DNA of 64,000 nucleotides from an uncultured Desulfocurvus sp. (GTDB taxonomy: Bacteria; Desulfobacterota; Desulfovibrionia; Desulfovibrionales; Desulfovibrionaceae): the NCBI GenBank assembly GCA_964390575.1, contig CAYMIP010000004.1:2262-66261 (forward strand), in the 5' to 3' direction. Below, one piece after another: positions 8,875 through 35,345 of the stretch. The notes under the pieces were generated by a model. It searched no databases. It worked only from the letters and a program-made list of their open reading frames with translations, and was not told where the DNA came from. The stretch's first letter is position 1. Every line of letters begins with the position of its first letter. The translations under genes and the position numbers were made by a program.

Positions 8875-9142
8875 TGCGGTCTCGATCGGTTGCAGGTGCC
8901 GGGGGAAACCTGGAACCCAAGGCTAGCACCCCTGGCCCGGTGCTGGCAAGCACCCGCAGCGCGCAGGCCGCAGTTGTGATCATTTCACGCAAGAGTGAGT
9001 AAACACCCCGGACAGGTCGACAAAAACCGCCAGTTGCGCTATGGGCATGCGCATTGTGGGGACTGCGGCCCTGGCCCGGATGTCGGGCTTGGGCCGCCTG
9101 TGTGAGAAGAGCAACAGCCAGCGCAGGATCGAGGGTGGTCGC

Positions 9143-18033: not shown

Positions 18034-19509
18034 ATGAGCGCCAAGCCGATGGACACGACGCCCAAAAAGCCCGCGAAGCGGGTTCCGCGCACTGAAATGC
18101 CCACGCAGCCGCCCATGCTGCGCATCCAGAACTACCTGGAGGTCGCCCTGGGATACACCGAGGCCGAGGCCAAGGCCGAGGCCGGGCGCTGCATCCAGTG
18201 CAAGAAGCCCACCTGCCGCCAGGGCTGCCCGGTGGAGATCGACATCAAGGGCTTCATCGGCCAGCTCCAGAAGAATGATCTGCCCGGCGCGTACAAGGTT
18301 CTGCGCGACTACAATTCCCTGCCCGCTGTCTGCGGCCGGGTGTGCCCGCAGGAGACCCAGTGCGAGGGTGAGTGCATCCTGGGCAAGAATCCGGCCAAGA
18401 CCGGCGGCCCGGTCTGCATCGGACGCCTGGAGCGCTATGTGGCCGACACCTTTGCCGCGCGCCTGGCCGCAGGCGACTCCGCCTGCATCCAGCTCACCGG
18501 CGAGGCCGCCTGCCGCATGGAGCGGCCCGATGTGCGCGTCGCCTGCATTGGCGGCGGGCCTTCCAGCCTCACCGTGGCGGGCTATCTGGCCGCCCTCGGC
18601 ATCAAGGTCACGGTGTTCGAGGCCCTGCACGAGGTCGGCGGGGTGCTCGTCTACGGCATTCCCGAATTCCGCCTGCCCAAGGCCATCGTGCGCCGCGAGA
18701 TCGACGCCATGAAGGAGCTGGGCGTGGAGTTCAAGACCAACTGGGTCGGCGGCAAGGCCATCATGGTCCAGGAACTGCTCGACCAGGGCTACAAGGCCGT
18801 GTTCCTGGGCGTGGGCGCGGGCCTGCCCCAGTTCATGAACGTGCCCGGGGAGAACAACATCGGCGTGTTCTCGGCCAACGAGTACCTGACCCGCGTGAAC
18901 CTGGGCCGGGCCTACGACTTCCCGAACTTCGACACGCCCATCTTCAAGGCCGACAACGTGGCTGTCATCGGCGGCGGCAACGTGGCCATGGACGCCGCGC
19001 GCACGGCCCTGCGCCTGGGCGCCAAGAACGTCTACATCGTCTACCGCCGCACCAAGGACGAGATGCCCGCCCGGCACGAGGAGCTGGAGCACGCCATTGA
19101 AGAGGGCGTGCAGCTCAAGTGCCTGTGCGGGCCGCTGGAGTTCAAGGGCGACGAGAACAAGCGCCTCAAGTCCATCCGCCTCCAGAAGATGTGCCTGGGC
19201 GAGCCCGACGCCTCGGGCCGCTGCCGGCCGCTGCCCATCGAGGGCGGCACCGACGAACTCGAAGTCGGCCTGGCCATCATCGCCGTGGGCACGCGGCCCA
19301 ACCCCATCCTGCTGGAGGCCACGCCAGGCCTGAAGCTGAACAAGCGCGGCTACATCGAGGCCGACCCCGAGACCGGCGAGACGAGCATCTTCGGCGTCTT
19401 CGCGGGCGGCGACATCGTCACCGGCGCGGCCACGGTCATCAGCGCCATGGGCGCGGGCCGCCGCGCGGCCAAGGAGATCGCGCGCAGGCTCCTGGGAGGC
19501 GAGGCGTAA
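18034..19509 (+). CDS. nfnB: NfnB/SudA-type subunit (glutamate synthase small-chain-like, 2x[4Fe-4S] + FAD/NADPH)
   Basis: 'RCIQCKKPTCRQGCPVEIDI', 'CGRVCPQETQCEGECILG', two dinucleotide folds 'VACIGGGPSSL' and 'VAVIGGGNVAMD', and 'VFAGGD'. Confidence 0.88.
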   Translation: MSAKPMDTTPKKPAKRVPRTEMPTQPPMLRIQNYLEVALGYTEAEAKAEAGRCIQCKKPTCRQGCPVEIDIKGFIGQLQKNDLPGAYKVLRDYNSLPAVCGRVCPQETQCEGECILGKNPAKTGGPVCIGRLERYVADTFAARLAAGDSACIQLTGEAACRMERPDVRVACIGGGPSSLTVAGYLAALGIKVTVFEALHEVGGVLVYGIPEFRLPKAIVRREIDAMKELGVEFKTNWVGGKAIMVQELLDQGYKAVFLGVGAGLPQFMNVPGENNIGVFSANEYLTRVNLGRAYDFPNFDTPIFKADNVAVIGGGNVAMDAARTALRLGAKNVYIVYRRTKDEMPARHEELEHAIEEGVQLKCLCGPLEFKGDENKRLKSIRLQKMCLGEPDASGRCRPLPIEGGTDELEVGLAIIAVGTRPNPILLEATPGLKLNKRGYIEADPETGETSIFGVFAGGDIVTGAATVISAMGAGRRAAKEIARRLLGGEA

Positions 19510-19675: not shown

Positions 19676-20860
19676 CTAGCAGGGCAGCGTGACGACGACC
19701 CGGGTGCCCTGGCCGGGCTGGCTGGAGATGACGATGTCGCCGCCCAGGGATTTGACAGTGCCATAGCTGACGGACAGGCCCAGGCCAGAGCCCTGGTCCA
19801 CCTCCTTGGTGGAGAAGAAGGGCTCGAACACGCGGGGCAGGTGCGCCGGGCTGATGCCCTGGCCCGTGTCCTCGATCTCGATGCGGACCTCGTGGTCGTG
19901 CACCGAAGTCACGACATACAGGCGCCCGCCCGTGGGCATGGCGTCCAGCGCGTTGTCCAGGATGTTGCCCAGGGCCGTGGCCAGGTCCGAGCCGGGGAGG
20001 TTTTGCGCGGGCAGGGCCAGGCCCGGCAGCTCCGGGGCGATGGCCGGCAGGGCCGTGATCCCGAGCTGCTCCAGGCGGCCTGCGCGCTCCTCCAGCAGGT
20101 CCTGGATCAGCGCGGCCAAATCCACTTCAGCGGCGGGGTCCGCAGCCGTCCTGGGCCGGGAGCAGGCCTCGGGCCGGGCTCCTGGCTTGGCTTTGTGGCA
20201 CAGGCAAAGCAGCTTGGCCGTGATCTGCTTCACGCGCTGGCCCTGCTCATGGAGCTTGGCCGCGCTCTGGGCGAGCTCCGCCAGCGCGCCGGAGGCGTTG
20301 GCCAGGCCCTCTCCAGGGACAGCGGCAGAAGCCGCGCCAAGGGCGTCCCCCAGGTCGGCCACCAGGTCGTCCATCCACCCGGCCAGGGAGACCATGATAT
20401 TGACGGGATTGTTGATCTCGTGGGCCACGCCCTCGGCCATCTGCCCCAGGGCGGCCATCTTGGCCGTCTCGGCCATGCGCAGGCCCTCCAGCCGCTCCTG
20501 GCGGCGGTCCTGGGCCCGGGCGATGGCCTCCACCAGCCGCTCGATGGGCACGGGCTTGACCAGGTAGTCCGTGGCCCCCAGCTTCATGCCCGCCACGGCG
20601 GTGGCCAGATCGTTCTGGCCCGTGAGCATGAGGGCCTCAACCTGGGGCCGCACCCGCTTGAGCTCGCGCAACAGGGCCAAACCGTCGATGCCCGGCAGGT
20701 TCACGTCCAGCACGGCCACGTCCAGGTCGTGCCCGGCGGCCAGGCGCAGGGCCTCCTCGCCGTCGTAGGCGGTGCGCACCGCAAAGCCCCGGGCCTGGAG
20801 CCGCTCGGCCAAAAGGTCGGCGAAGTCGCGCTCGTCGTCCACCAGCAGGACAGCGTTCAT
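19676..20860 (-). CDS. REC-HisKA-HATPase_c fusion (receiver-coupled histidine kinase)
   Basis: N-terminal REC 'LLVDDERDFADLLAERL...VAVLDVNLPGIDG...LVKPV'. H-box 'GVAHEINNPVN'. 'NILDNALDA', 'DTGQGI' and 'GSGLGLSVS'. Confidence 0.88.
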   Translation of the reverse strand: MNAVLLVDDERDFADLLAERLQARGFAVRTAYDGEEALRLAAGHDLDVAVLDVNLPGIDGLALLRELKRVRPQVEALMLTGQNDLATAVAGMKLGATDYLVKPVPIERLVEAIARAQDRRQERLEGLRMAETAKMAALGQMAEGVAHEINNPVNIMVSLAGWMDDLVADLGDALGAASAAVPGEGLANASGALAELAQSAAKLHEQGQRVKQITAKLLCLCHKAKPGARPEACSRPRTAADPAAEVDLAALIQDLLEERAGRLEQLGITALPAIAPELPGLALPAQNLPGSDLATALGNILDNALDAMPTGGRLYVVTSVHDHEVRIEIEDTGQGISPAHLPRVFEPFFSTKEVDQGSGLGLSVSYGTVKSLGGDIVISSQPGQGTRVVVTLPC

Positions 20861-20872
20861 GGCTGCCCTGGC

Positions 20873-21358
20873 CTACTTTTTGTCGTGCTCGTGGATGACC
20901 TGATCGGCGTCGGCAAAGTCGTTGGCCTCGGCAAAGGTGGCGGCCACCATCATGTCTTCCATCTTCTGGCGGTAGGCGCCCTTGATGCTCTTCACCAGGC
21001 GGTCGATGTCCACGGGCTTCTTGTGGTACTCATACGCGCCGAGCTGCATGCAGACTTCCTGGTCCTGCTCCGAACCGTGGCCGGTCAGGATGATGACCTG
21101 GACGTGGGGGTGCATCTTTTTGACCTTGCGCAGCACCTCCACGCCGTCGATGCCGGGCATGCGCAGGTCCAGCACCATGACGTCGGGCGCCTCGTCCTTG
21201 ACCATCTCGAGAGCGGTCTCGCCGTCATGGGCCACGTCCGAGCCCATGTCGCGCATCTTCATGCGCTCGGCCAGGGTGTTGATGAAATTCTCCTCGTCGT
21301 CGACCAGCAGCAGCTTGATCTTCTTGCTCACTGTGCACTCCTTGTTGCGGGCGCTCAT
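20873..21358 (-). CDS. Stand-alone REC response regulator with a short acidic tail
   Basis: 'IKLLLVDDEENFINTLAERM...VMVLDLRMPGIDGVEVLRKVKK...ILTGHGS...HKKPVDI'. ATG 21358 chosen (MSARNKE...). Confidence 0.85.
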   Translation of the reverse strand: MSARNKECTVSKKIKLLLVDDEENFINTLAERMKMRDMGSDVAHDGETALEMVKDEAPDVMVLDLRMPGIDGVEVLRKVKKMHPHVQVIILTGHGSEQDQEVCMQLGAYEYHKKPVDIDRLVKSIKGAYRQKMEDMMVAATFAEANDFADADQVIHEHDKK

Positions 21359-21431
21359 CGCGCCCTTTTCCGGGGGCCTGGTCCCGGTCACTCGTGTGGC
21401 GAGCCCAGGCCCCTGGTTTTGGGCTTTTCAG

Positions 21432-21838: not shown

Positions 21839-22465
21839 TCAGGCCACGGACCTGGGCAGGGCCAGCACCACGCCCAGGCCGCCAAGGCCGGGGGAGAGCC
21901 CGATGCCCAGGGCCGTGGCCAGGGGGGCGAGTTCGGCCCAGGCCGGGGTTCCGCGCAGGGCCTCGAAACCGGGGCCGTCCAGGCGCACCACGGCCAGCCC
22001 ACCCTTCTCCTCCACCGAGAGCAGAACCTGCGAGCCCAGGGGCAGCACCTCCAGGGCGGCTTCCAGGGCCGCGCCCACGGCGTCCATGACCTCCACGGCG
22101 CGCAAGGCCGTGCGCAGGCCGGAGCGGCCAGGGGCCAGCACCAGGGTGGCCTTGCGCCGGGCGGCCTGCCTGCGCGTGAGCCCCACCAGGGCGCGCACGG
22201 CCTCGTTGACATCGGCCCCGGCCGGGCTGGCCTCCGGCGCATGCGCGCAGTAGTTGAGCTGTTCGGAAAGCATCATGCCGCGCTCCACCTGCTCGGCCAG
22301 AACGCGCAAACCCTTCTTGAACCGCTCGGCATGGGCGAATCCTGCGCTGCTCAGGGCCAGCAGGTCCTCCATGAGGCCGGAAGACTCGCGGATGGTGGCC
22401 AGGATGTTTTGCATCTCATGGGTGGCCGCGGCTGTCAGCCTGCCCATGAACAGTGCGTCGCGCAT
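21839..22465 (-). CDS. Sensor-less histidine-kinase-like protein with a degenerate ATP-binding domain
   Basis: H-box-like 'AAATHEMQNILATI' at the extreme N-terminus. G1-like 'RLDGPGF' and G2-like 'GLGGLGV' are present, but no N-box Asn is recognisable ('GAALEAALEV'). No TM or sensor domain. Confidence 0.65.
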   Translation of the reverse strand: MRDALFMGRLTAAATHEMQNILATIRESSGLMEDLLALSSAGFAHAERFKKGLRVLAEQVERGMMLSEQLNYCAHAPEASPAGADVNEAVRALVGLTRRQAARRKATLVLAPGRSGLRTALRAVEVMDAVGAALEAALEVLPLGSQVLLSVEEKGGLAVVRLDGPGFEALRGTPAWAELAPLATALGIGLSPGLGGLGVVLALPRSVA

Positions 22466-22476
22466 GGCCCGTCCCC

Positions 22477-22902
22477 TTACTGCCCGTCGCTCTTGTCGGC
22501 CTGGCTGGCGGCCTGGGTGGCGGCCTTGCAGGCGTAGTCGATGGCCGACTCCATCTTCTCGATGAGCGTGTCGATGTTGAGCGGCTTCATCATGTAGTCA
22601 TAGGCGCCCAGGCGCATGCCTTCGATGCCGTCGCGGGTGCTGCCGTGGCCGGTCAAAAGCAGCACCTGCACGTGCGGGTTGGTGCGCTTCACGCGCTCCA
22701 GCACCTCCAGGCCCTTGATGCCGGGCATGAGCACGTCGAGCACCACCACTTGCGGCTCCTCGGCGGCGATGGCCTCCAGGGCGCTCTCCCCGTCAAAGAC
22801 CACGCGGGCGGGGATGCCCCGCAGCTCCAGGCGCTCGGCCAGGGTGGTGATGAACTCGCGCTCATCGTCCACGAGCAGGATCTTCCAGTCTTTCGCGTTC
22901 AT
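22477..22902 (-). CDS. Stand-alone REC response regulator
   Basis: 'KILLVDDEREFITTLAERLELRG...VVVLDVLMPGIKGLEVLERVKR...LLTGHGS...MMKPLNI'. The start overlaps the upstream kinase stop (ATGA). Confidence 0.88.
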   Translation of the reverse strand: MNAKDWKILLVDDEREFITTLAERLELRGIPARVVFDGESALEAIAAEEPQVVVLDVLMPGIKGLEVLERVKRTNPHVQVLLLTGHGSTRDGIEGMRLGAYDYMMKPLNIDTLIEKMESAIDYACKAATQAASQADKSDGQ

Positions 22903-24623
22903 GCCGCTGCCTCCCGCTGCCCCTTGGGCAGGGTGATGGTGAGCGTGGTGCCCACGCCCTGTTCGCTCTCGACGGCGATGTCGCCGCCCAGGCGCTTGAT
23001 GATGCCATAGGTGATGGACAGGCCCAGGCCCGTGCCCTTGCCCTTCTTGGTGGTGAAGAAGGGCTCGAAAATATGCTTCAAGGTCTCATCAGACATGCCG
23101 CAGCCGTTGTCGCGCACGCTGATTTCCACATTGTCCCCGACTTCCCGGGCCGTGCCCAGGATGCGCCCGCCATCGGCCACGGCGGCCAGGGCGTTGTTGA
23201 ACAGATTCAGGAACACCTGCTGGAGCTGGCTGCGGTCGGAGTGGATGCGCGGCAGCTCCGGGTCGATCTCCAGGCGGAGCTCCACCTGGCGGTGCATGGC
23301 CTCGTTGGTGAGAAAGCCCATGGTCTCCTTGATGATCTCGCCCACGTCCAGCTCCTCGATGCTCACGTCCATGCGCCGGGCAAAGCCGAGCATGCGGTGG
23401 GTGATGCCCCGGCAGCGGTCCACCGCGCGCAGGATGCTTTCCACCTGAGCCAGGATGCGGTCGCGCACGGGAAAGTCGGGCTGGCCCGCGAGCAGGTCGT
23501 TCATGAGCCCGGCCTTCTCGTTGATGATGGCCAGCGGGTTGTTGATCTCATGCGCCACGCCTGCGGCCAGCCGCCCGATGCTGGAGAGCTTCTGCGAATG
23601 CTCCACGTGGCGCAGGGCCAGCTCGCGCCGCTCCTCAGACTCCTTCATGCGCCGGATGAGCAGGTCCGTGACGCGCACGGCGGCCAGGAGCACTGCGGCC
23701 ACGCCCACCACAAAGATGAACAGGAGGTCGCCGCGCACCGTGTACCAGGTCTTGAGCACGCTGCCCTTGGGCTTCACGGCCATGAGCACGAAGTCCGCCT
23801 CCGGGAAGTAGGCGTAGGCCAGGAAAACCTCCCGCCCCAGGGGGTCGGTGAAGTTCAGCACCGCCGGTTCAAAGGTCTTGGGCGGCAGCTGGAAGGTCAG
23901 CTTTTCCAGCACCTTGCCATAGGAGTTGGAGTTGGTCTGCATGAGCCCCTGGCTGTTCACCAGAAAGGCGTCGGCGTCGGGCTCCAGGCTCATGGAGGCG
24001 ATGAAGCGCTCGAACTGGCGGGTGTCCAGGGTGGCGCGCAGGATCCACACCCGGCCGTCCTCGGTCCTGTGCTGCACGGCCACGATGACGTGGGGGAAGT
24101 TGCGGAAGCCCATGAACACGTCGCTGACGTACTTGCCCTTGATCCGCACTTCCTGGAACCAGCGCTGCTCGGCGTAGTTCTTGCCCTGCAGCGCGTACGG
24201 GCCCACGTAGTTGACCTGGGTGCCGTGCTCGTCGATGAGCCCCAGGTCCACGAAGCCCTCGAACTCCTTGGTCATCACATTGAAGATGCGCGCCAGGTGC
24301 CGCTCGCTGGAGAGCTCCTGGTAGGAGTAGGCCGAGGCGATGAGGCTCACCGTGGAGGAGCGCTCGGTGAGGAAGAGCTCAAAGGAGTTCTTGGTCTTGT
24401 TCACCAGCACGCGCAAAGGGTTCTGGATCTCTCTGGTCATGGCGTTCTGGTGCTCATAGTAGTTGAGCACGGCCATGACCGTGAGCGGTATGAGCGTGGC
24501 CGCAGCCATGATGCCGATGATCTTGCGGCGCAGCAGGGTGTAGCGCTCGGGGCTCACGGCCTCGTCCACGTCGCTTTGCAGCTCGCGCAGCGGGTTTCGT
24601 ATGAGCGCCACGAGCTTACGCAT
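22899..24623 (-). CDS. Cache-domain transmembrane sensor histidine kinase
   Basis: TM1 'IIGIMAAATLIPLTVMAVL'. Periplasmic Cache-like region ('GLIDEHGTQVNYVGPY...WFQEV...YVSDVF'). TM2. H-box 'GVAHEINNPLAII'. 'NLFNNALAA', 'DNGCGM' and 'GTGLGLSITY'. Confidence 0.9.
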   Translation of the reverse strand: MRKLVALIRNPLRELQSDVDEAVSPERYTLLRRKIIGIMAAATLIPLTVMAVLNYYEHQNAMTREIQNPLRVLVNKTKNSFELFLTERSSTVSLIASAYSYQELSSERHLARIFNVMTKEFEGFVDLGLIDEHGTQVNYVGPYALQGKNYAEQRWFQEVRIKGKYVSDVFMGFRNFPHVIVAVQHRTEDGRVWILRATLDTRQFERFIASMSLEPDADAFLVNSQGLMQTNSNSYGKVLEKLTFQLPPKTFEPAVLNFTDPLGREVFLAYAYFPEADFVLMAVKPKGSVLKTWYTVRGDLLFIFVVGVAAVLLAAVRVTDLLIRRMKESEERRELALRHVEHSQKLSSIGRLAAGVAHEINNPLAIINEKAGLMNDLLAGQPDFPVRDRILAQVESILRAVDRCRGITHRMLGFARRMDVSIEELDVGEIIKETMGFLTNEAMHRQVELRLEIDPELPRIHSDRSQLQQVFLNLFNNALAAVADGGRILGTAREVGDNVEISVRDNGCGMSDETLKHIFEPFFTTKKGKGTGLGLSITYGIIKRLGGDIAVESEQGVGTTLTITLPKGQREAAA

Positions 24624-24966
24624 TGGGGCGCCCCGCGAAAAGGATGGCGCCTGCGGACAGCTCGCCCTTCAGGTACTGGGCCAGGGCCTCCCCGGCCAGA
24701 CCGGCCACGGCGTCGAGCACCTCCACGCGCTTCCAGCGCAGGTAGTGGTAATGCTCCTCCTCGATGCCGCCGGTGATGACCGCGGCCACCTCGCGGTCCA
24801 GAATGAGGTCGCAGAGGTCGTCGGCGCTGGAATGGGCCAGCACCAGGTCCTGCCTGCGCACCTCATGGCCTGTGGCGTCCACGGTGACGAGCAGCACCTC
24901 GGAGCAGAGGTCGAAGCGCGGGGCCACCTCGTCGCGGTACAGCGTCACCAGGATCTTCTTGCCCAT
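24616..24966 (-). CDS. NifX/NifB-C-terminal-like (Nitro_FeMo-Co family) small protein
   Basis: 116 aa. Pattern 'KILVTL...VAPRFDLCSEVLLVTVD...AAVITGGIEEEHYHYL...VEVLD' resembles the dinitrogenase FeMo-cofactor-binding fold family. Assignment by eye only. Confidence 0.55.
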   Translation of the reverse strand: MGKKILVTLYRDEVAPRFDLCSEVLLVTVDATGHEVRRQDLVLAHSSADDLCDLILDREVAAVITGGIEEEHYHYLRWKRVEVLDAVAGLAGEALAQYLKGELSAGAILFAGRPNA

Positions 24967-24975
24967 GACCGCCCC

Positions 24976-26247
24976 CTATGCCTTTTTCCGCACTGCGGAT
25001 TTTGGGGCGGGCTTGCCCGCCGCCGCAGGCCTGGAGCCCGGTTCCGAGGGCAGGCGCACGTGCGGAGGCAGGTGCTCGGGCAGGATCTGCTCGCCCGTGC
25101 AGACCATCGCCGCGTACTCCACCATGTTGCGCAGCTCGCGCACGTTGCCGGGGTAGCTGTAGGCCGAGAGCAGGGCCAGGGCGGCCTCGGAGAAGCCCTG
25201 CACCTGCTTGCGGAACTTGGCCGCGTAGATGTTCAGGAAGTGGGCCAGCAGGAACTGCACGTCCTCGCCGCGCTCGCGCACGGGGGGCAGGTGCAGGCGC
25301 ACGGCGTTCAGGCGGTGGAGCAGATCCTCGCGCAGCAGCCCGGCCTTGACCAGGGCCTCGGGGTCGCGGTTGGTGGCCGCCACCACGCGCACGTTCAGGC
25401 GCATGGGCCGCTCGCCCCCGGCGGGCAGCACGGCCTTCTCGTCCAGCAGGCGCAGCAGCCGGCCCTGCTGGGCCAGCGGCATGTCGGCGATTTCGGAAAG
25501 ATAGAGGGTGCCGTTCTGGGCCAGCTGGAACTTGCCGGGCCGCGCCCCTCCGCCCCCGGTCTGGGGCCCCTCGGCCTGGGGGCCATCGGCCTGGCCACCG
25601 GCCTGGCCGAAGAGCTCCACGTCGAGCAGGGCCTCGGGCATGGGCGTGGCGTTGACGCGCACAAAGCCCTCGCGCGCCCGGGGGCTGGCCCGGTGCAGGG
25701 CCTCGGCCAGCAGATCCTTGCCCGTGCCGGACTCCCCGGTGAGCAGCACGGTGGCGTCGCTCTGGGCCACGGCGGGCAGGATGCGCAGCAGATGCTCCAT
25801 GACCGCGCAGCGGCCCACGACCTGCCCCGGCCCGGCGGAGTGCGACAGCCGCGCCTCCAATTCCTTCAGGGCCGAGAGGTCCTCAAGAACGTCCAGGGTG
25901 CACAGGAAGGCCCCGTCGCGGTCCAGCACGGGCACGGAGGTCAGGCGCACGGGCACTTTCCGGCGGTGCCGGTTGATGAGGGTGCCCTCGACACTGCACG
26001 GCTCCGCGCCAGAGCAGGCAAGTCGGGGGCAGCCGTGCAGGCAGAAGCTGCCGCGCAACACGTGCCGGCAGGGCACGCCCCTCACCTCAGCGGTGGTGTA
26101 CCCGGTGAGGCTTTCCAGCGTGCGGTTCATGAACAGCGTGCGCCGCTCCTCGTCCAGGGCGACCACCCCGAAGGGCAGCTCGGAAAGGACGCGGGGCAGG
26201 TCGGCACGGTCCAGGCCGCAGATGTTCATGAGGGTGTTCTGGTGCAA
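24976..26247 (-). CDS. PAS-AAA+ protein of the sigma-54 activator family, degenerate (no GAFTGA, Walker-B D to S, no HTH)
   Basis: 'VLLTGESGTGKDL' Walker A. 'VELFGQAGGQADGPQAEGPQTGGGGARPGKF' replaces the ELFGHEKGAFTGA loop. 'GTLYLSEI' stands for GTLFLDEI. 'VVAATNRD' and 'GNVRELRN' are retained. The protein ends 'AAGKPAPKSAVRKKA' with no Fis-type HTH. TTG start with GGGAGGAC SD. Confidence 0.85.
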   Translation of the reverse strand: MHQNTLMNICGLDRADLPRVLSELPFGVVALDEERRTLFMNRTLESLTGYTTAEVRGVPCRHVLRGSFCLHGCPRLACSGAEPCSVEGTLINRHRRKVPVRLTSVPVLDRDGAFLCTLDVLEDLSALKELEARLSHSAGPGQVVGRCAVMEHLLRILPAVAQSDATVLLTGESGTGKDLLAEALHRASPRAREGFVRVNATPMPEALLDVELFGQAGGQADGPQAEGPQTGGGGARPGKFQLAQNGTLYLSEIADMPLAQQGRLLRLLDEKAVLPAGGERPMRLNVRVVAATNRDPEALVKAGLLREDLLHRLNAVRLHLPPVRERGEDVQFLLAHFLNIYAAKFRKQVQGFSEAALALLSAYSYPGNVRELRNMVEYAAMVCTGEQILPEHLPPHVRLPSEPGSRPAAAGKPAPKSAVRKKA

Positions 26248-26309
26248 GGCGCGTCCTCCCAGGGATTGCGTTTCCGGCGCACTGGCGCGGCCCCCAGGAT
26301 GGGGGAGCG

Positions 26310-26732
26310 CTAGTGCGCGCCTCCGCCCACGATGCCGGACGCGGCAAAGGCGAGCACCAGGATCTCGGCCAGGGCCAGCCCGGCGAAGACGTATTCCTTG
26401 CGCTTCAGGAAGACCGGAATGAGGGGAATGTAGCAGACAATGGTCATGCCCGCCAGGAGCACGATGCCCAGGAAGTTGAGGAAGTCGCCCTTGGCGATGA
26501 GCACGGCCCAGCCCCAGCCGTGGGGGACCTTGCCAATCTCAAGGTAGGTGCCCACGGGCTGCGACCAGAGCAGGGGCACCTTCTCCAGGGGGATATGCGG
26601 GGTGATGAGGCCGCTGACGTACAGCAGGTAGGTCACGGCCATGAGGGCCAGGCCGCCCCAGCAGCCGTAGAACAGCATGTTGGCGTAGGTAATCTGCTCC
26701 GGGGTGGCCTTTCCGGTATGAATCTGGCTCAT
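26310..26732 (-). CDS. Small integral membrane protein (DUF1634-like partner of TauE permeases)
   Basis: About 140 aa with 3-4 hydrophobic helices. GGAGG SD before ATG 26732. Sits immediately downstream of a TauE/SafE gene, a common pairing. Family call is tentative. Confidence 0.6.
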   Translation of the reverse strand: MSQIHTGKATPEQITYANMLFYGCWGGLALMAVTYLLYVSGLITPHIPLEKVPLLWSQPVGTYLEIGKVPHGWGWAVLIAKGDFLNFLGIVLLAGMTIVCYIPLIPVFLKRKEYVFAGLALAEILVLAFAASGIVGGGAH

Positions 26733-26772
26733 AGTGTCCTCCAAGGATGATGCGTGCCGAGTGCGCCGCGGA

Positions 26773-27798
26773 TTAGATGCCCAGGCCTTTTAAAAGCGCC
26801 TTGCCGCCCGCGAAGAGCAGCACGCCGATGACCATGTAGCGGATGAACGTGGGCTTGGCCTTGGCCAGGAGCCGCACGCCGACAAAGGAGCCCAGCATGA
26901 GGCCGATGATGCTCGGTATGGCCATGAGCGGGATGACGCAGCCCTTGTTCAGGTAGACCCAGGCCGCAGAGGTGTCGGTGATGGAGAGCAGGAACTTGCT
27001 GGTGCCCACGGCCACCTTGAGCGGGGCGCCCATCATCAGGTTCAGCACCGGCACGTTGGCCCAGCCCGCGCCCAGGCCGAACATGCCGGCCATGATGCCG
27101 ATGATGACGAACATGAACAGGCCCGGCAGGGTGCGGTGGGTCTTCCACTGCACCAGCTGGCCGGTGGAGGGGTCGTTGTAGGCGCCGTCCATGCCCAGGG
27201 CCATGCTCAGGGCATCTTGCTTGGTCACCACGGGGTAGGCCGTGTTCTTGGAGCACAAGAGCAGGATGGCGATGCCCATGATGGTGATGCCCAGGCAGAG
27301 CTGCACGACGTTGGTGGGCAGGGCCATGCCCAGAAACGCGCCCACGATGGCGCAGGAGGAGGCGATGAGCGCCACGGGCAGGGCCAGGCGCAAGGACGCG
27401 AAGTTGCGCTTCAAGAGACCGGGCCCGGCCGCCAGCGCGCCAGCCAGGGCCACCATGAGGCCCGCTCCGCGCACAAAGTCGAGGTGGAAGGGAAAAAAGC
27501 CGCTGACCAGGGGCACGTAGAGCACGCCGCCGCCCACACCCGCCAGCACCGCGATGATGCCCAGGACGAAGCAGAAGAACAGCAGCACCAGGGGCCACAC
27601 CCACCAGGCCACGCCGGTTTCCTTGCCAAGCTGCACGGCCGCGTCGGCCATGTCCTGGCCCGCGCCGGCCACGGCGTTTTGCACGGCGGACCCATCCGTG
27701 GCGGCGCCGGAGGCATAGGCGGCCACGGCAAAAAGCAGCACGCCGAACATAACAAACAGGGCGATTTTCGCCGGGTGACTCAGTCGATCCATCATCAT
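26773..27798 (-). CDS. TSUP-family anion exporter (TauE/SafE sulfite/sulfonate exporter-like)
   Basis: Duplicated 4-TM halves with 'GVGGGVLYVPL' and 'GLGAGWANVPVLNLMMGAPLKVAVGTS' motifs. AGGAG SD before the ATGATGATG at 27798; the track ORF start 27984 is a spurious extension. Confidence 0.85.
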   Translation of the reverse strand: MMMDRLSHPAKIALFVMFGVLLFAVAAYASGAATDGSAVQNAVAGAGQDMADAAVQLGKETGVAWWVWPLVLLFFCFVLGIIAVLAGVGGGVLYVPLVSGFFPFHLDFVRGAGLMVALAGALAAGPGLLKRNFASLRLALPVALIASSCAIVGAFLGMALPTNVVQLCLGITIMGIAILLLCSKNTAYPVVTKQDALSMALGMDGAYNDPSTGQLVQWKTHRTLPGLFMFVIIGIMAGMFGLGAGWANVPVLNLMMGAPLKVAVGTSKFLLSITDTSAAWVYLNKGCVIPLMAIPSIIGLMLGSFVGVRLLAKAKPTFIRYMVIGVLLFAGGKALLKGLGI

Positions 27799-27877
27799 TC
27801 CCGCTCCTCTGATCGTCTCTGGATTGCCCAGCCTGCCTCGCCAACCCCTCGGGCCGCGCAGTGGACGCCCCATACTA

Positions 27878-27891
27878 TCAAGAAACGTGCC
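27878..27891 (-). promoter_or_regulatory. Candidate sigma-54 (-24/-12) promoter for the tauE-led operon
   Basis: Minus strand reads aGGCACGtttcTTGAt: GGCAC-N5-TTGA with correct -24/-12 spacing, but TTGA instead of TTGC. About 80 nt upstream of the tauE start, facing a divergent sigma-54 activator gene. Confidence 0.35.
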
Positions 27892-27945
27892 TCTGGATAA
27901 CCAGCTGAAATAACAGGCTTGACTGCGACAACAAGAGGGAGTAAA

Positions 27946-27975
27946 CGGCAAGAACTTGCCGCTGTTGCGGCAAGG
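27946..27975. promoter_or_regulatory. Palindromes CGGCAAG-AA-CTTGCCG and TTGC-G-GCAA (possible activator UAS)
   Basis: A 7-2-7 perfect inverted repeat at 27946-27961, followed by TTGCGGCAA at 27965-27973. About 60-90 bp upstream of the candidate -24/-12 element. Confidence 0.3.
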
Positions 27976-28125
27976 GTGCGCCAAAAGGCGGTCCGCTGCC
28001 GCCTGTGCCCCACGGCAAAAGCAGTTGCGCAGCCACCCCAGCCCTGGGTCAGGGCGCGGTGCTGCCCGGATGCTGTAATTTTATTAGCGATAGAGCGATG
28101 TTGTGAAAAAGGAGGGGGCTGGGTG

Positions 28126-29202
28126 ATGAGCATGGACCCACGGGCCTACGGCGGCAAGTTTTTGCCGCATGACCTGGACGCCGACCCCGAAGCGCGCGCC
28201 GCCATGAACGAGGCCGGGCTGCTCTTCCGCTCCGATGCCATGCGTGCCCTGTACCGCGTGGCCATCCAGGTGGCCGGGTCCGATGCCCCGGTGCTGCTCA
28301 CCGGGGAGTCCGGCACGGGCAAGGAGCTGTTCGCCCGCCTCCTGCACACCTTAAGCAACCGCAGCGGGCGGCCCTTTGTGCCTGTGAACTGCGGCGTGCT
28401 CTCGGGCGAACTCTTTGCCGACAAGTTCTTCGGGCACGAATCCGGGGCCTTCACCGGGGCCGTGCGCCTGCAAAAGGGCAGCTTCGAACTGACCGGGGAC
28501 GGCACCCTGTTTCTGGACGAGGTGGGGGAGATCCCGCTCGCCAACCAGGTGGATTTCCTGCGCGTGCTGGAGGAGCGCAGCTTCAAGCGCCTGGGCGGAG
28601 AGAAGGACCTGGGCTTCCGCGCCCGCATCGTCACCGCCACCAACCGCTCCCTGCCGGACATGGTGCGCTCCGGCCACTTCCGCGCCGACCTGTTCTACCG
28701 CCTGAACGTCATCCCCATCGCCCTGCCCTCCCTGCGCGAGCGCCGCGAGGACATTGCGCCCCTGGCCGAGTACTTCCTCTGGCTTTTCGGGCACCACTAC
28801 CACAGGCCGAACCTCAGCCTCTCGTCCGGGGCCCTGGGGCTGCTCACCCGGCACAACTGGCCGGGCAACGTGCGCGAGCTCAAGAATCTCATGGAGCGCG
28901 TGGCCCTGCTGCACAAGGGCGAGGCCCCGGTCCGGGCCCAGGATCTGCCCCTGGAGATGCGCCTGGAGCTGGGTGAAGAGCTGCCCCCGGACCTGTGCCG
29001 CGAGGGGCTGGCCGGGGCTGGCCCTGGCGCAGATGACGCAGCGGGGTTCAATCTGGAGGCCGTGGTGCGCCGGGCGGAGATCGCCGCCATGATCGGGGCC
29101 TACAAGGCCACGGGGCGCAGCAAGCAGCGCACTGCGGAGCTGCTCGGCATCAGCCCGCGCACCCTGCGCCACAAGCTGGCGCAATACGAGCTCAAGCTGT
29201 AG
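28126..29202 (+). CDS. Sigma-54-dependent activator, AAA+ plus Fis-HTH only (no N-terminal sensory domain)
   Basis: About 35 aa precede 'VLLTGESGTGKE'. Intact 'FFGHESGAFTGA', 'GTLFLDEVGE', 'IVTATNRS' and 'GNVRELKN'. C-terminal 'RSKQRTAELLGISPRTLRHKL'. AGGAGG SD before ATG 28126. Confidence 0.88.
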   Translation: MSMDPRAYGGKFLPHDLDADPEARAAMNEAGLLFRSDAMRALYRVAIQVAGSDAPVLLTGESGTGKELFARLLHTLSNRSGRPFVPVNCGVLSGELFADKFFGHESGAFTGAVRLQKGSFELTGDGTLFLDEVGEIPLANQVDFLRVLEERSFKRLGGEKDLGFRARIVTATNRSLPDMVRSGHFRADLFYRLNVIPIALPSLRERREDIAPLAEYFLWLFGHHYHRPNLSLSSGALGLLTRHNWPGNVRELKNLMERVALLHKGEAPVRAQDLPLEMRLELGEELPPDLCREGLAGAGPGADDAAGFNLEAVVRRAEIAAMIGAYKATGRSKQRTAELLGISPRTLRHKLAQYELKL

Positions 29203-29264: not shown

Positions 29265-29794
29265 CTAGCCCTCCGGGGTCAGCTGCGCGATGTGCCGGGC
29301 GTAGGCCGGGTAGGCGGCCTGGAGTTCGGCGCGCTGGCCATGCTCGTAATCCTCGAACTCGAAGCCCGGCGACACGGTGCAGCCGAGCAGGGCGAAGCGC
29401 CCGCCGGGCCGAAGCCGCGTGCCCTGCCAGACCCCGCGCCGGACCACGGCCTGGGGCCGCTGCCCGGCCAGGATGTCGCCGCCGAGGGTCAGGGTCTGGC
29501 CGGAGCCGTCGGGGCAGAGCTGGAGCATCTCCACGGGGTCGCCCAGGTAGAAGTGGAAGATTTCGGTGCTGGCCACGCGGTGCAGGGCGGAGAAGCACGC
29601 GGGCGTGATCAGGTAGTAGATGGCCGTGGCGCAGCGCCGGGGGCCGCTCTGGCGGCCGGGCATGGTTCCGCCGGGGATGACGCCGCCAGAACGGTATGTT
29701 TCGGCGTACAGGCCGCCCTCCTCGGGCAGGGGCGTCAGCCCCAAGGCGCGGATCAGGGCTGCGACATGGGCCTCGGAGCCCCATTCCGGGCTGC

Positions 29795-29798
<4 letters not shown>
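29265..29798 (-). CDS. Cupin-superfamily protein (DUF985-like)
   Basis: 'LGLTPLPEEGGLYAETYRS...TAIYYLI...FSALHRVASTEIFHFYLGDPVEM...GCTVSPGFEFEDYE' matches the DUF985 cupin pattern. GTG start overlaps the upstream kinase stop (GTGA). Confidence 0.75.
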
Positions 29799-35143
<5,345 letters not shown>

Positions 35144-35345
35144 TGTGTTCTCGCCCCCCGGCTTGTGGCCGACGGCCGGTTCGGGTCCGCCCGCCTTCTG
35201 CCCGTGTGTCGCCAAGACCTTCGCACTTTGGCCTGCCGGAGCAGGGGGGGCGGACCGTGGCTGGATGTCTGGTCTGCCCTGGCGGCAGAGAACGCGAATC
35301 TAGCAAAATACGTAGCCGCGCACAAGGGCGCGCCGGGAATTCCCG

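What the first reader, a model, noticed from the sequence alone, without database searches (positions are those of the whole stretch)
24976..29202. Hypothesis: a split enhancer-binding protein (PAS-sensing dead subunit plus sensor-less AAA+-HTH subunit)
The divergently transcribed activator (28126-29202) is the exact complement of the degenerate protein. It has an intact GAFTGA, Walker B and HTH, but only about 35 residues before the AAA+ core, so it has no regulatory domain (a PspF-like architecture, which in the PspF case needs a trans-acting regulator). The degenerate protein supplies a PAS sensor but none of the output functions. It is encoded in the operon that the sensor-less activator is positioned to control, via the candidate -24/-12 element at 27878. 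bEBPs work as hexamers, and hetero-oligomeric bEBPs (HrpR/HrpS) are known. Mixed rings in which the PAS subunit gates the active subunit would be a feedback-wired, two-polypeptide bEBP. This is inference from domain complementarity and gene arrangement only.
Basis: inference. Interest (0 to 1): 0.68.

Follow-up and report, generated by a model that had tools for sequence, protein, structure and literature searches.

The report
Sensor-less sigma-54 activator with output-dead partner
A sulfate-reducer operon is switched on by a sigma-54 activator that has no sensor domain, and the operon encodes a conserved relative that keeps a probable iron-sulfur redox sensor and an ATP-binding core but has lost DNA binding and sigma-54 contact; this gene pair was already noticed in Desulfovibrio vulgaris (DVU2956/DVU2960), and whether the two proteins work together is still untested.

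Summary
EBP2 (28126-29202, +) has about 33 N-terminal residues, then an AAA+ core with GAFTGA and a DE Walker B, then HTH_8. EBP1 (24976-26247, -) has a PAS domain, an AAA+ core and a lid. Its L1 loop is scrambled, its Walker B is SE, and it has no HTH.

The locus is orthologous to D. vulgaris DVU2956 / DVU2957-2967. Kazakov 2015 showed there that only DVU2956 binds the promoter region, and called DVU2960 (GAFPGA) of unclear function.

New results here:
- Of 47 loci anchored on the neighbouring membrane-protein gene, 40 have both EBPs, 7 have neither and none has only one.
- Four of four EBP2-anchored loci also carry EBP1.
- Outgroups that lack EBP2 carry a complete PAS-EBP (GAFTGA plus HTH).
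- The states form a series: GAFTGA+HTH, then GAFPGA+HTH, then GAFSWA-type without HTH, then a scrambled loop.
- The EBP1 AAA+ core is under purifying selection (dN/dS 0.11). Walker A, the arginine fingers and sensor II are conserved.
- The EBP1 PAS domain carries OrpR's C-x8-C-x3-C motif.

It is not a gene fission, and EBP1 is not fully dead. The best reading is that EBP1 regulates EBP2 in trans through AAA+ hetero-oligomers, more likely as an inhibitor. That interaction is inferred only.

The parts
28126..29202 (+). EBP2: sensor-less sigma-54 activator, orthologue of DVU2956. About 33 N-terminal residues, then an AAA+ core with GAFTGA and a DE Walker B, a lid, and a Fis-type HTH. The true start may be GTG 28123.
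   Evidence: Pfam domains. Motifs conserved in all 51 orthologues examined. The HTH 'LLGISPRTLRHKLAQY' resembles the DVU2956 HTH 'LLGVSPRTLRYKFAEY'. AAA+ dN/dS is 0.08.
28151..28168 (.). Distal operator GCGGCAAGTTTTTGCCGC, a perfect DVU2956-type site that lies inside EBP2 codons 9-15 (GGKFLP).
   Evidence: Pattern search. In 37 non-redundant loci the codons read GGC-AAx-xxx-TTG-CCG, with the rare Leu codon TTG in about 33 of 36. Kazakov's site table lists distal sites at -346/-348.
27945..27973 (-). Proximal upstream activating sequence with three half-sites: TTGCCGC-AACA-GCGGCAA-GTTC-TTGCCG. It lies 55-80 bp upstream of the -24 element.
   Evidence: The same triple half-site is found in L082, L083, L086 and L088. 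It matches the DVU2956 motif GCGGCAA-N4-TTGCCGC and the 'three conserved half-sites' bound by DVU2956 in EMSA.
27877..27892 (-). Sigma-54 promoter aGGCACGtttcTTGAt. The -24 GG is at 27891-27890 and the -12 element is TTGA.
   Evidence: The position is conserved in orthologous loci, and the published DVU2957 promoter is equivalent.
26773..27798 (-). TauE/SafE (TSUP) family membrane transporter, orthologue of DVU2958 and first gene of the operon. The ATG is at 27798.
   Evidence: Pfam PF01925. 72-91% identical across loci.
26310..26744 (-). 144-aa conserved membrane protein (p144), orthologue of DVU2959.
   Evidence: No Pfam hit. Mean column identity 71% in alignment A2. Used as the neutral anchor for the metagenome scan.
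24976..26247 (-). EBP1: output-dead PAS-AAA+ protein, orthologue of DVU2960. It has a PAS domain with a Cys triad, an AAA+ core and a lid, but no GAFTGA and no HTH.
   Evidence: AF2 mean pLDDT 85.
26029..26070 (-). PAS-domain Cys triad C60-x8-C69-x3-C73 (PCRHVLRGSFCLHGCP), a candidate [4Fe-4S] site.
   Evidence: C60, C69 and C73 are each conserved in at least 90% of 69 family members. The spacing is the same as OrpR C52/C61/C65, which are required for sensing by the [4Fe-4S]-containing PAS domain of OrpR.
25534..25605 (-). Remnant of the L1 (GAFTGA) loop, now low-complexity sequence encoded by a 12/15-nt tandem repeat.
   Evidence: Mean conservation is 0.25, against 0.72-0.76 for the flanking core. 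dN/dS is 0.40.
24616..24966 (-). NifX/NifB-like (Nitro_FeMo-Co domain) protein, orthologue of DVU2961. It is always inherited together with the EBP1 lineage.
   Evidence: Pfam PF02579. Present with EBP1 and with the complete PAS-EBP outgroups, and absent where EBP1 is absent.
22899..24623 (-). dCache-type sensor histidine kinase, orthologue of DVU2962.
   Evidence: Pfam; synteny.
22477..22902 (-). Stand-alone receiver-domain response regulator, orthologue of DVU2963.
   Evidence: Pfam.
21839..22465 (-). 208-aa HisKA-like protein without an ATPase domain, orthologue of DVU2964.
   Evidence: Weak HisKA match. Conserved position in all loci.
20873..21391 (-). Second stand-alone receiver protein. 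The start codon is uncertain.
   Evidence: Pfam.
19676..20860 (-). Receiver-histidine kinase hybrid, orthologue of DVU2967 and last gene of the operon.
   Evidence: Pfam. A convergent gltD-like gene follows at 18034-19509.

Best explanation
This is the Humidesulfovibrio-type version of the Desulfovibrionales module DVU2956 / DVU2957-2967.

Shown, partly through orthologues: EBP2 is the only DNA-binding, sigma-54-contacting activator at the locus. It recognises GCGGCAA-N4-TTGCCGC operators, at 27945-27973 and at one site inside its own codons 9-15. It is positioned to drive the -24/-12 promoter at 27892-27877. That promoter would transcribe tauE, p144, EBP1, the nifX-like gene, the dCache kinase, the receiver proteins and the rest of the operon.

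Shown by comparison: EBP1 descends from a complete PAS-AAA+-HTH activator. After EBP2 appeared at the locus, this lineage lost first the GAFTGA threonine, then the HTH, then the whole L1 loop. It kept an OrpR-like Cys-triad PAS domain, Walker A, the Walker B Glu, both arginine fingers and sensor II under strong purifying selection.

Inferred: EBP1 is the trans-acting sensory partner of the sensor-less EBP2. It docks on EBP2 through the ordinary AAA+ protomer interface, as a heterodimer or as part of a mixed ring. The state of its PAS cofactor (probably redox, possibly served by the co-inherited NifX-like protein) would decide whether it does so. A subunit with no L1 loop cannot engage sigma-54. 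EBP1 is also made from the operon that EBP2 activates. The most likely sign is therefore inhibitory: a signal-gated negative feedback on EBP2.
For: - Orthology to DvH. P0118 carries the exact DVU2960 HTH string. The operator motif, the promoter and the gene order all match Kazakov's supplement.
- EMSA: DVU2956 binds upstream of DVU2957 and DVU2960 does not.
- Co-occurrence: 40 loci with both, 0 with only one, 7 with neither, from a neutral anchor; 37 of the pairs are non-redundant. Four of four EBP2-anchored loci carry EBP1.
- Outgroups L001, L002, L003 and L087 have a complete PAS-EBP followed by the nifX-like gene (plus the HK, RR and p208 genes in L001, L003 and L087), and have no EBP2.
- Loci lacking both EBPs: three of the four with full 10-kb upstream flanks have an HK gene plus an EBP gene upstream, confirmed by Pfam in L153 as a HAMP kinase plus a receiver-fused complete EBP.
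- A neighbour-joining tree gives a single ordered degeneration series.
- EBP1 core dN/dS is 0.108, against 0.082 for EBP2. The ATP-site and arginine-finger motifs are near-invariant while L1 has conservation 0.25.
- The C-x8-C-x3-C motif is conserved and matches OrpR, whose PAS domain acts negatively.
- Distances between the two AAA+ cores correlate at r = 0.89 (partial r = 0.65 after controlling for TauE and p144), as high as between domains of one protein. This is only suggestive.
- Precedents exist for bEBP hetero-oligomers: HrpRS, FleQ/FleT, RedR1/R2 and VnfA paralogues.
- For the inhibitory sign: both GAFTGA motifs are required in HrpRS. According to a review, DVU2956 expressed from a plasmid produces phenotypes, including in D. 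alaskensis G20. Kazakov's site table lists no DVU2956 site for G20.
Against: - There is no physical or genetic evidence that EBP1 and EBP2 interact. Co-occurrence is equally expected if EBP2 merely replaced the lost output of EBP1.
- The operon also encodes a kinase and three or four stand-alone receiver proteins. These could be the real input to EBP2.
- The Ser/Thr in Walker B also occurs in the apparently functional relatives, so the ATPase status of EBP1 is unknown.
- The Fe-S assignment rests only on the Cys spacing. OrpR's conserved Asp/Glu at position +2 is His in EBP1.
- The mirror-tree correlation is not independent of shared phylogeny and was not tested for significance.
- The sign of regulation is inferred from analogy only.
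Confidence: 0.5

Rival explanations
1. Replacement without contact. EBP2 simply took over transcriptional output. EBP1 is retained for an ancestral job that does not involve EBP2, for example an ATP- and redox-dependent scaffold or partner for the co-inherited NifX-like protein and the dCache kinase and receiver proteins. Input to EBP2, if any, would come from a stand-alone receiver protein or only from its own expression level through the intragenic operator.
For: - EBP1-lineage proteins and the NifX-like gene are inherited as a unit, with or without EBP2.
- In three of the four outgroups (L001, L003, L087) the complete PAS-EBP also sits next to the same kinase/receiver cassette.
- The operon has several receiver-only proteins with no output domain.
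- The EBP2 gene contains its own operator, which suggests autoregulation.
Against: - The kinase/receiver cassette occurs in all three regulatory configurations. EBP2 is found only with a degenerate EBP1.
- This reading gives no specific reason why arginine fingers and a full AAA+ core should be conserved as tightly as in EBP2.
- The evolutionary distances of the two AAA+ cores track each other closely.
Confidence: 0.28
2. Obligate co-activator, the positive form of the first reader's idea. EBP2 cannot form an active hexamer alone. EBP1 protomers complete an active mixed ring, or nucleate its assembly on DNA, so that the PAS signal switches the ring on, as with the co-dependent HrpR/HrpS or FleQ/FleT pairs.
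For: - Strict co-occurrence.
- The trans-acting arginine fingers conserved in EBP1 could complete the ATP sites of EBP2.
- Co-dependent bEBP pairs are known.
Against: - In HrpRS both GAFTGA motifs are strictly required.
- Current PspF structures have successive L1 loops tracking the sigma-54 N-terminus, so protomers without L1 should stall the ring.
- DVU2956 alone binds DNA.
- According to a review, DVU2956 alone produces phenotypes when over-expressed, including in a host for which no DVU2956 site is listed.
- OrpR's homologous type of PAS domain acts negatively.
Confidence: 0.15
3. EBP1 is a decaying relic of a once-functional activator and has no present function.
For: - Loss of GAFTGA and of the HTH.
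- Slippage-type tandem repeat in the L1 remnant.
- Variable C-terminal tail, dN/dS 0.68.
Against: - An intact ORF in every locus where the gene is fully covered, across the 37 non-redundant pairs, with identities of 46-82% over the order.
- AAA+ core dN/dS of 0.108.
- Near-invariant ATP-site motifs and PAS cysteines.
- A confident AF2 fold.
Confidence: 0.03

Closest known systems
DVU2956 / DVU2960 of Desulfovibrio vulgaris Hildenborough (Kazakov et al. 2015, PMC4641369; Zhu et al. 2019, known here only through PMC8586430)
   Same: Orthologous locus. It has the same gene order (TSUP transporter, membrane protein, PAS-EBP, hypothetical protein, kinase, response regulator and so on), the same operator GCGGCAA-N4-TTGCCGC, the same kind of sigma-54 promoter with a non-GC -12 element, and a divergent activator with no N-terminal domain. 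EMSA showed that only DVU2956 binds.
   Different: DVU2960 still has GAFPGA and a Fis-type HTH. The window protein has lost the whole L1 motif and the HTH, which is the derived end of the series. DvH also has an extra small ORF (DVU2957) in front of the transporter. The authors left the role of DVU2960 open and did not name it as the partner of DVU2956.
HrpR/HrpS hetero-hexameric bEBP, with HrpV and HrpG, of Pseudomonas syringae (PMC3105312)
   Same: Two AAA+ sigma-54-family proteins at one promoter. Partial degeneration of a paralogue creates specialised subunits. The activator has no sensor domain and is controlled in trans.
   Different: HrpR and HrpS are recent tandem paralogues. Both keep a sigma-54-contacting GAFTGA-type motif and an HTH, and both motifs are required. 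Neither has a sensory domain, and regulation comes from the non-AAA+ protein HrpV. Here the partner has no L1 loop and no HTH, carries the only sensor, and is not a close paralogue of the activator.
PspF/PspA
   Same: A constitutively competent activator with no N-terminal domain, divergently transcribed from its target operon. The operon's own product feeds back negatively on the activator (established knowledge; also invoked for DVU2956).
   Different: PspA is a coiled-coil protein, not an AAA+ protein. It binds a surface patch of PspF rather than occupying a protomer position.
OrpR (DVU2106), an Fe-S PAS bEBP (PMC8359166)
   Same: A PAS domain with a C-x8-C-x3-C triad. In OrpR the PAS domain holds a redox-sensitive [4Fe-4S] cluster, needs the three cysteines for sensing, and represses the AAA+ domain. 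NifX-like (Nitro_FeMo-Co) proteins are encoded nearby in both systems.
   Different: OrpR is a complete, self-contained activator with GAFTGA and an HTH. Its HTH sequence belongs to a different clade. Cofactor binding by EBP1 is untested.
FleQ/FleT, RedR1/RedR2 and VnfA1/VnfA2/VnfA3 interacting bEBPs (PMC9542535, PMC10084136)
   Same: Documented hetero-oligomerisation between bEBPs as a regulatory device. The VnfA study also explicitly suggests negative regulation through hetero-oligomer formation.
   Different: As far as those papers describe them, the partners are themselves competent activators. None is reported as a conserved partner that has lost both the L1 loop and the DNA-binding domain.

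Membership tests
Bacterial enhancer-binding protein (sigma-54 activator): EBP2 | AAA+ sigma-54 interaction domain with Walker A and a Walker B DE pair | tested here: met
   PF00158 E = 8e-60. GESGTGKE and GTLFLDEVGEI are conserved in all orthologues.
Bacterial enhancer-binding protein (sigma-54 activator): EBP2 | GAFTGA L1 loop that contacts sigma-54 | tested here: met
   GAFTGA in the window. Among 51 orthologues the motif is GAFTGA, GAYTGA or GAFTSA.
Bacterial enhancer-binding protein (sigma-54 activator): EBP2 | C-terminal DNA-binding domain, with a cognate upstream activating sequence next to a -24/-12 promoter | tested here: met
   HTH_8. Conserved operators and promoter. The orthologue DVU2956 binds this motif in EMSA.
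Bacterial enhancer-binding protein (sigma-54 activator): EBP2 | ATP-dependent open-complex formation with sigma-54 RNA polymerase | not testable with these tools
   Needs in vitro transcription.
Bacterial enhancer-binding protein (sigma-54 activator): EBP1 | AAA+ sigma-54 interaction domain | tested here: met
   PF00158 E = 2e-47. Best matches among solved structures are ZraR and NtrC1.
Bacterial enhancer-binding protein (sigma-54 activator): EBP1 | GAFTGA L1 loop | tested here: not met
   Replaced by a variable low-complexity loop. The critical Phe and Thr are not conserved in any HTH-less orthologue.
Bacterial enhancer-binding protein (sigma-54 activator): EBP1 | DNA-binding domain | tested here: not met
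   No HTH_8. Only about 58 residues follow PGNVRE, against 99-134 in EBP2 and its orthologues and in HTH-bearing relatives. The next gene starts 9 nt after the stop. Even the HTH-bearing orthologue DVU2960 did not bind the promoter region.
Hetero-hexameric bEBP of the HrpR/HrpS type | Two co-encoded AAA+ sigma-54-family proteins that always occur together | tested here: met
   40 loci with both, 0 with only one, 7 with neither; plus 4/4 EBP2-anchored loci.
Hetero-hexameric bEBP of the HrpR/HrpS type | Both partners contact sigma-54 through GAFTGA-type loops, and both loops are required | tested here: not met
   EBP1 has no such loop. The requirement in HrpRS is documented.
Hetero-hexameric bEBP of the HrpR/HrpS type | The partners are close paralogues from a local duplication | tested here: not met
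   The AAA+ cores of EBP1 and EBP2 are 37-40% identical. That is lower than EBP2 against unrelated EBPs, at 45-52%.
Hetero-hexameric bEBP of the HrpR/HrpS type | Physical mixed-composition ring | not testable with these tools
   No multimer prediction or wet-lab assay is available. Only an indirect distance correlation of r = 0.89.
OrpR-type Fe-S PAS redox sensor | Three conserved PAS cysteines with C-x8-C-x3-C spacing | tested here: met
   C60, C69 and C73 are each conserved in at least 90% of 69 sequences. OrpR has C52/C61/C65.
OrpR-type Fe-S PAS redox sensor | Bound [4Fe-4S] cluster and a redox-dependent change in activity | not testable with these tools
   Needs anaerobic purification with UV-visible and EPR spectroscopy.

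The most novel reading that the evidence does not exclude
EBP1/DVU2960-type proteins are a conserved class of 'pseudo-activators'. They would be AAA+ sigma-54-family proteins that have given up sigma-54 contact and DNA binding. They would survive only as redox-sensing (Fe-S PAS) poison or gate subunits that occupy protomer positions in the ring of a separate, sensor-less activator. Because they are encoded in that activator's target operon, this would give signal-gated negative feedback. It would be the first bEBP system in which sensing and output sit on two different AAA+ polypeptides. Living intermediates of the transition exist: GAFTGA+HTH, then GAFPGA+HTH, then no motif and no HTH.
Probability: 0.35. 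Interest if true: 0.72.

Novelty: new variant of a known kind. Interest (0 to 1): 0.55.

Why it matters
Desulfovibrio species carry unusually many sigma-54 activators, and how sensor-less ones such as DVU2956 receive signals is not known. According to a review, DVU2956 affects biofilm formation.

If the output-dead paralogue is the missing sensor, the system would show how an AAA+ ring can be regulated by a catalytically and functionally specialised pseudo-subunit. It would also document stepwise subfunctionalisation in extant genomes. The system can be tested directly in the genetically tractable D. vulgaris Hildenborough.

If the rival explanation holds, the locus is still a clean example of one activator being displaced by another, with the displaced protein kept for a different role.

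Tried and rejected
1. The genome-contig scan with the EBP1 alignment chose generic Walker A and sensor II patterns. It returned mostly unrelated EBPs, and only L001-L003 were useful as outgroups. Synteny was recovered with the look-up of encoding contigs and a metagenome scan anchored on p144.
2. I first read the conserved G-[KN]-x-L-P motif in the EBP2 N-terminus as a possible protein docking motif for a partner. I rejected this. It is the protein-level shadow of a DNA operator, GGCAA-N4-TTGCC, with the rare TTG Leu codon fixed.
3. Literal gene fission or recent duplication as the origin of the pair was rejected on AAA+ core identities.
4. A pseudogene or relic reading was rejected by dN/dS and motif conservation.
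5. I did not use the Walker B Asp-to-Ser change as proof that the ATPase is dead, because complete GAFTGA-bearing relatives have Thr at that position.
6. The Zhu et al. 2019 paper on DVU2956 is not held. Only a review's summary could be used.
7. The AF2 monomer model of EBP1 confirmed a well-folded PAS plus AAA+ plus lid with a lower-confidence L1 region. It gives no information on partners, and no multimer prediction was possible.
8. The other GGCAYG-N4-TTG matches in the window (1440, 9044, 26438, 49808) did not look like intergenic promoters from their context. I did not pursue them.

Full report
**1. The observation**

The two ORFs are at the stated coordinates.

EBP2 (28126-29202, +, 358 aa):
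- Pfam places the sigma-54 interaction domain at residues 34-198, the AAA+ lid at 204-279 and a Fis-type HTH_8 at 327-354. Nothing precedes residue 34.
- It carries GESGTGKE, GAFTGA and GTLFLDEVGEI.
- A strong AAGGAGG Shine-Dalgarno sequence lies 7-10 nt before GTG28123/ATG28126.

EBP1 (24976-26247, -, 423 aa):
- Pfam finds a PAS domain (16-118), the sigma-54 interaction domain (144-318) and the lid (324-402), but no HTH.
- Aligned with ZraR and NtrC1, the L1 loop has a 9-residue insertion and GAFTGA is replaced by low-complexity sequence.
- That sequence is encoded by a 12/15-nt tandem repeat.
- Walker B reads LYLSEI.
- The next gene begins 9 nt after the EBP1 stop, so no HTH remnant is hidden downstream.
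- An AF2 model is confident overall (mean pLDDT 85) and dips in the L1 region.

**2. The locus and its orthologues**

The minus-strand operon runs as follows:

| Gene | Coordinates |
|---|---|
| tauE (TSUP transporter) | 27798-26773 |
| p144 membrane protein | 26744-26310 |
| EBP1 | 26247-24976 |
| NifX-like protein | 24966-24616 |
| dCache histidine kinase | 24623-22899 |
| receiver protein | 22902-22477 |
| HisKA-like 208-aa protein | 22465-21839 |
| second receiver | 21391-20873 |
| receiver-kinase hybrid | 20860-19676 |

The closest homologues are from Humidesulfovibrio.

The same arrangement, with a divergent EBP2, is found in:
- D. aminophilus, Desulfomicrobium, Thermodesulfomicrobium and a Desulfovibrio sp. 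(OttesenSCG isolate), plus several metagenomic contigs;
- a Desulfolutivibrio-related contig that is cut before the EBP2 position.

It is the locus described in D. vulgaris Hildenborough as DVU2956 / DVU2957-DVU2967:
- Homologue P0118 ends with exactly the DVU2960 HTH string given in Kazakov's supplement.
- The EBP2 HTH resembles that of DVU2956.
- The gene list matches one-to-one.

Kazakov et al. reported the following:
- DVU2956 lacks an N-terminal domain, and they suggested a partner protein or a regulatory cascade.
- DVU2960 has GAFPGA and is of unclear function.
- The two genes are co-localised with the same sigma-54 promoter in several genomes.
- In EMSA only DVU2956 binds upstream of DVU2957.

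**3. Cis elements**

- On its own it is unremarkable: 5 matches to the looser pattern in the window against 2.0 expected.
- The equivalent element lies 93-106 nt before tauE in L082, L083, L086 and L088.
- The published DVU2957 promoter (…GGCACGGAACTTGTTA) likewise lacks a GC at -12.
- Between 55 and 80 bp upstream lies TTGCCGC-AACA-GCGGCAA-GTTC-TTGCCG (27973-27946). This is three half-sites of the DVU2956 motif GCGGCAA-N4-TTGCCGC, conserved in the orthologous loci.
- A second, perfect site (28151-28168) lies inside EBP2 codons 9-15. See section 8.

**4. Co-occurrence**

I anchored a metagenome scan on the neighbouring p144 gene, so that neither EBP biased the sampling.

- Of 47 loci with enough flank on both sides, 40 have both EBP1 (just downstream of p144) and EBP2 (divergent from tauE).
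- Seven have neither, and none has only one.
- Thirty-seven of the pairs are non-redundant at below 97% identity.
- Four further loci found through EBP2 homologues all contain an HTH-less EBP1.

Loci with neither EBP:
- Where the downstream flank is long enough, tauE-p144 is followed directly by the dCache kinase and receiver cassette.
- They also lack the NifX-like gene.
- Three of the four with full 10-kb upstream flanks have an HK gene plus an EBP gene upstream. Pfam confirms this in L153 as a HAMP kinase plus a receiver-fused complete EBP.

Outgroups:
- Four loci (Desulfohalobiaceae, Syntrophaceae, Desulfobulbaceae and one metagenomic contig) have a complete PAS-EBP followed by the nifX-like gene. 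In L001, L003 and L087 the kinase, receiver and p208 genes follow as well.
- This PAS-EBP has GAFTGA plus an HTH of the DVU2960 type, …LGWGRSTLWRKMKQYGL.
- They have no EBP2, tauE or p144.

EBP2 therefore occurs only where the PAS-EBP lineage is degenerate. The PAS-EBP lineage and the NifX-like gene travel together.

**5. A graded series**

The in-operon protein shows these states:

| L1 motif | HTH | EBP2 at the locus | Examples |
|---|---|---|---|
| GAFTGA | yes | no | outgroups |
| GAFPGA | yes | yes | DVU2960 type: L081, L114, L127, P0118, P0119 |
| GAFSWA / GAAPWA / GSYPWA | no | yes (not checked for P0120) | P0120, L086, L136 |
| scrambled loop of variable length | no | yes | window and most others |

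A neighbour-joining tree orders these as nested clades with a single loss of the HTH. The tree has no bootstrap support and is indicative only.

The Thr-to-Pro change is reported to inactivate NifA.

**6. EBP1 is selected, not decaying**

Across the 37 non-redundant loci:
- Walker A, the Walker B Glu, both arginine fingers (LREDLLHRL) and sensor II are near-invariant.
- The L1 stretch has mean conservation 0.25, against 0.72-0.76 for the flanking core.

Within the Humidesulfovibrio-like subset:

| Region | dN/dS |
|---|---|
| EBP1 AAA+ core | 0.108 |
| EBP2 AAA+ core | 0.082 |
| EBP1 L1 remnant | 0.40 |
| EBP1 C-terminal tail | 0.68 |

- The Ser at the Walker B Asp position cannot be read as inactivation. 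The complete GAFTGA-bearing relatives have Thr at that position.
- The PAS domain carries C60-x8-C69-x3-C73, each cysteine conserved in at least 90% of 69 sequences.
- That is the spacing of the three cysteines required for sensing in OrpR, whose PAS domain holds a redox-sensitive [4Fe-4S] cluster and represses the AAA+ domain.

**7. Not a literal split**

The EBP2 AAA+ core is 45-52% identical to assorted unrelated EBPs but only 37-40% identical to EBP1. EBP2 was recruited to the locus. It is not the other half of a fissioned gene.

**8. A motif that turned out to be DNA**

- The otherwise variable EBP2 N-terminus has a conserved G-[KN]-x-L-P.
- Its codons are GGC-AAx-xxx-TTG-CCG in nearly all loci, using the rare Leu codon TTG. 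That is the operator GGCAA-N4-TTGCC.
- The conservation is therefore at the DNA level. It marks an intragenic, probably autoregulatory or distal-enhancer site, not a docking peptide.

**9. Mechanism**

Shown: EBP2 is a complete sensor-less activator with conserved operators next to a conserved sigma-54 promoter. Its DvH orthologue binds that DNA.

Inferred: EBP1 acts on EBP2. The arguments for this are:
- the all-or-none association;
- the absence of EBP2 wherever the PAS-EBP is complete;
- the retention of exactly the features an AAA+ protomer needs to sit in a ring (nucleotide binding and trans-acting arginine fingers), while the features needed for output are lost;
- distances between the two AAA+ cores that correlate as tightly (r = 0.89; partial r = 0.65 after controlling for TauE and p144) as distances between two domains of one protein (not independent of phylogeny, no significance test).

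Hetero-oligomeric bEBPs are documented but rare.

On the sign of regulation:
- In HrpRS a T-to-A change in the GAFTGA of either partner abolishes activation.
- In PspF structures the L1 loops of successive protomers track the sigma-54 N-terminus.
- OrpR's PAS domain is inhibitory.
- According to a review, DVU2956 expressed alone gives phenotypes, including in D. alaskensis G20. No DVU2956 site is listed for G20.

I therefore favour a signal-gated inhibitory (poison-subunit or capping) role, which would make a negative feedback loop. I put the obligate co-activator version lower.

The main rival is that EBP2 merely replaced the output of EBP1 and the two never touch. EBP1 would then work with the NifX-like protein and the kinase/receiver proteins, and a stand-alone receiver might be the input to EBP2.

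**10. Verdict**

Co-occurrence and complementarity are strong. 'Split' and 'dead' are inaccurate. The interaction itself is untested.
- The gene pair is already in the literature for D. vulgaris.
- New here: the order-wide all-or-none pattern, the degeneration series, the selection analysis, the OrpR-type Cys triad, the NifX-like linkage and the intragenic operator.
- I class it as a new variant of a known kind (trans-regulated or hetero-oligomeric bEBPs), of moderate interest, and directly testable in D. vulgaris.

Noticed in passing
window 28151-28168 (inside EBP2 codons 9-15): A perfect DVU2956-type operator, GCGGCAAGTTTTTGCCGC, lies within the EBP2 coding sequence. It explains the conserved G-[KN]-x-L-P 'peptide motif': the codons are fixed as GGC-AAx-xxx-TTG-CCG, with the rare TTG Leu, in about 33 of 36 loci. 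It is probably an autoregulatory or distal enhancer site.
   Followed up: yes
window 25552-25608: The remnant of the EBP1 L1 loop is encoded by a 12/15-nt tandem repeat. The nearest homologue, P0001 (97% identical), is 9 residues shorter exactly here, so slippage-type indels are still occurring in the former GAFTGA loop.
   Followed up: partly
L001, L002, L003, L087; P0109-P0117: The complete, GAFTGA-bearing relatives of EBP1 all have Thr in place of the Walker B Asp (L[F/Y]LTEIGDL). This looks like an apparently functional bEBP clade with a non-canonical Walker B.
   Followed up: partly
L153, L154, L159 (also L140, L142, L145, L147, L150, L151, L158, L160): The tauE-p144-dCache kinase-receiver cassette also exists without EBP1, the NifX-like gene or EBP2. 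In L153, L154 and L159 an HK gene plus an EBP gene lie upstream, confirmed by Pfam in L153 as a HAMP kinase plus a receiver-fused complete EBP. This is a third regulatory configuration of the same cassette.
   Followed up: partly
L083 16581-20526 (Desulfomicrobium): An orp-like cluster (DUF134, CbiA/ParA-type Fe-S ATPases, Nitro_FeMo-Co proteins) lies immediately downstream of the operon. The operon's own NifX-like gene belongs to the same domain family as those Nitro_FeMo-Co proteins.
   Followed up: no
window 29795-35215 (-) and 29265-29798 (-): Next to EBP2 lies a giant 1806-aa hybrid kinase (MASE1, several PAS domains, GAF, HisKA/HATPase, receiver, Hpt), followed by a DUF985 cupin. No link to the EBP pair was examined.
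   Followed up: no
window 1440-1452 (+): TCTGGCACGGGCATTGCC is a near-consensus -24/-12 match (TGGCAC-N5-TTGC). From its context it appears to lie in coding sequence. The matches at 9044, 26438 and 49808 are weaker.
   Followed up: no
L081 4413-4619; DvH: In the DvH-type loci the sigma-54 promoter sits about 200 nt upstream of tauE, because an extra small ORF (DVU2957, hypothetical) precedes the transporter. The window and most other loci lack this ORF.
   Followed up: partly
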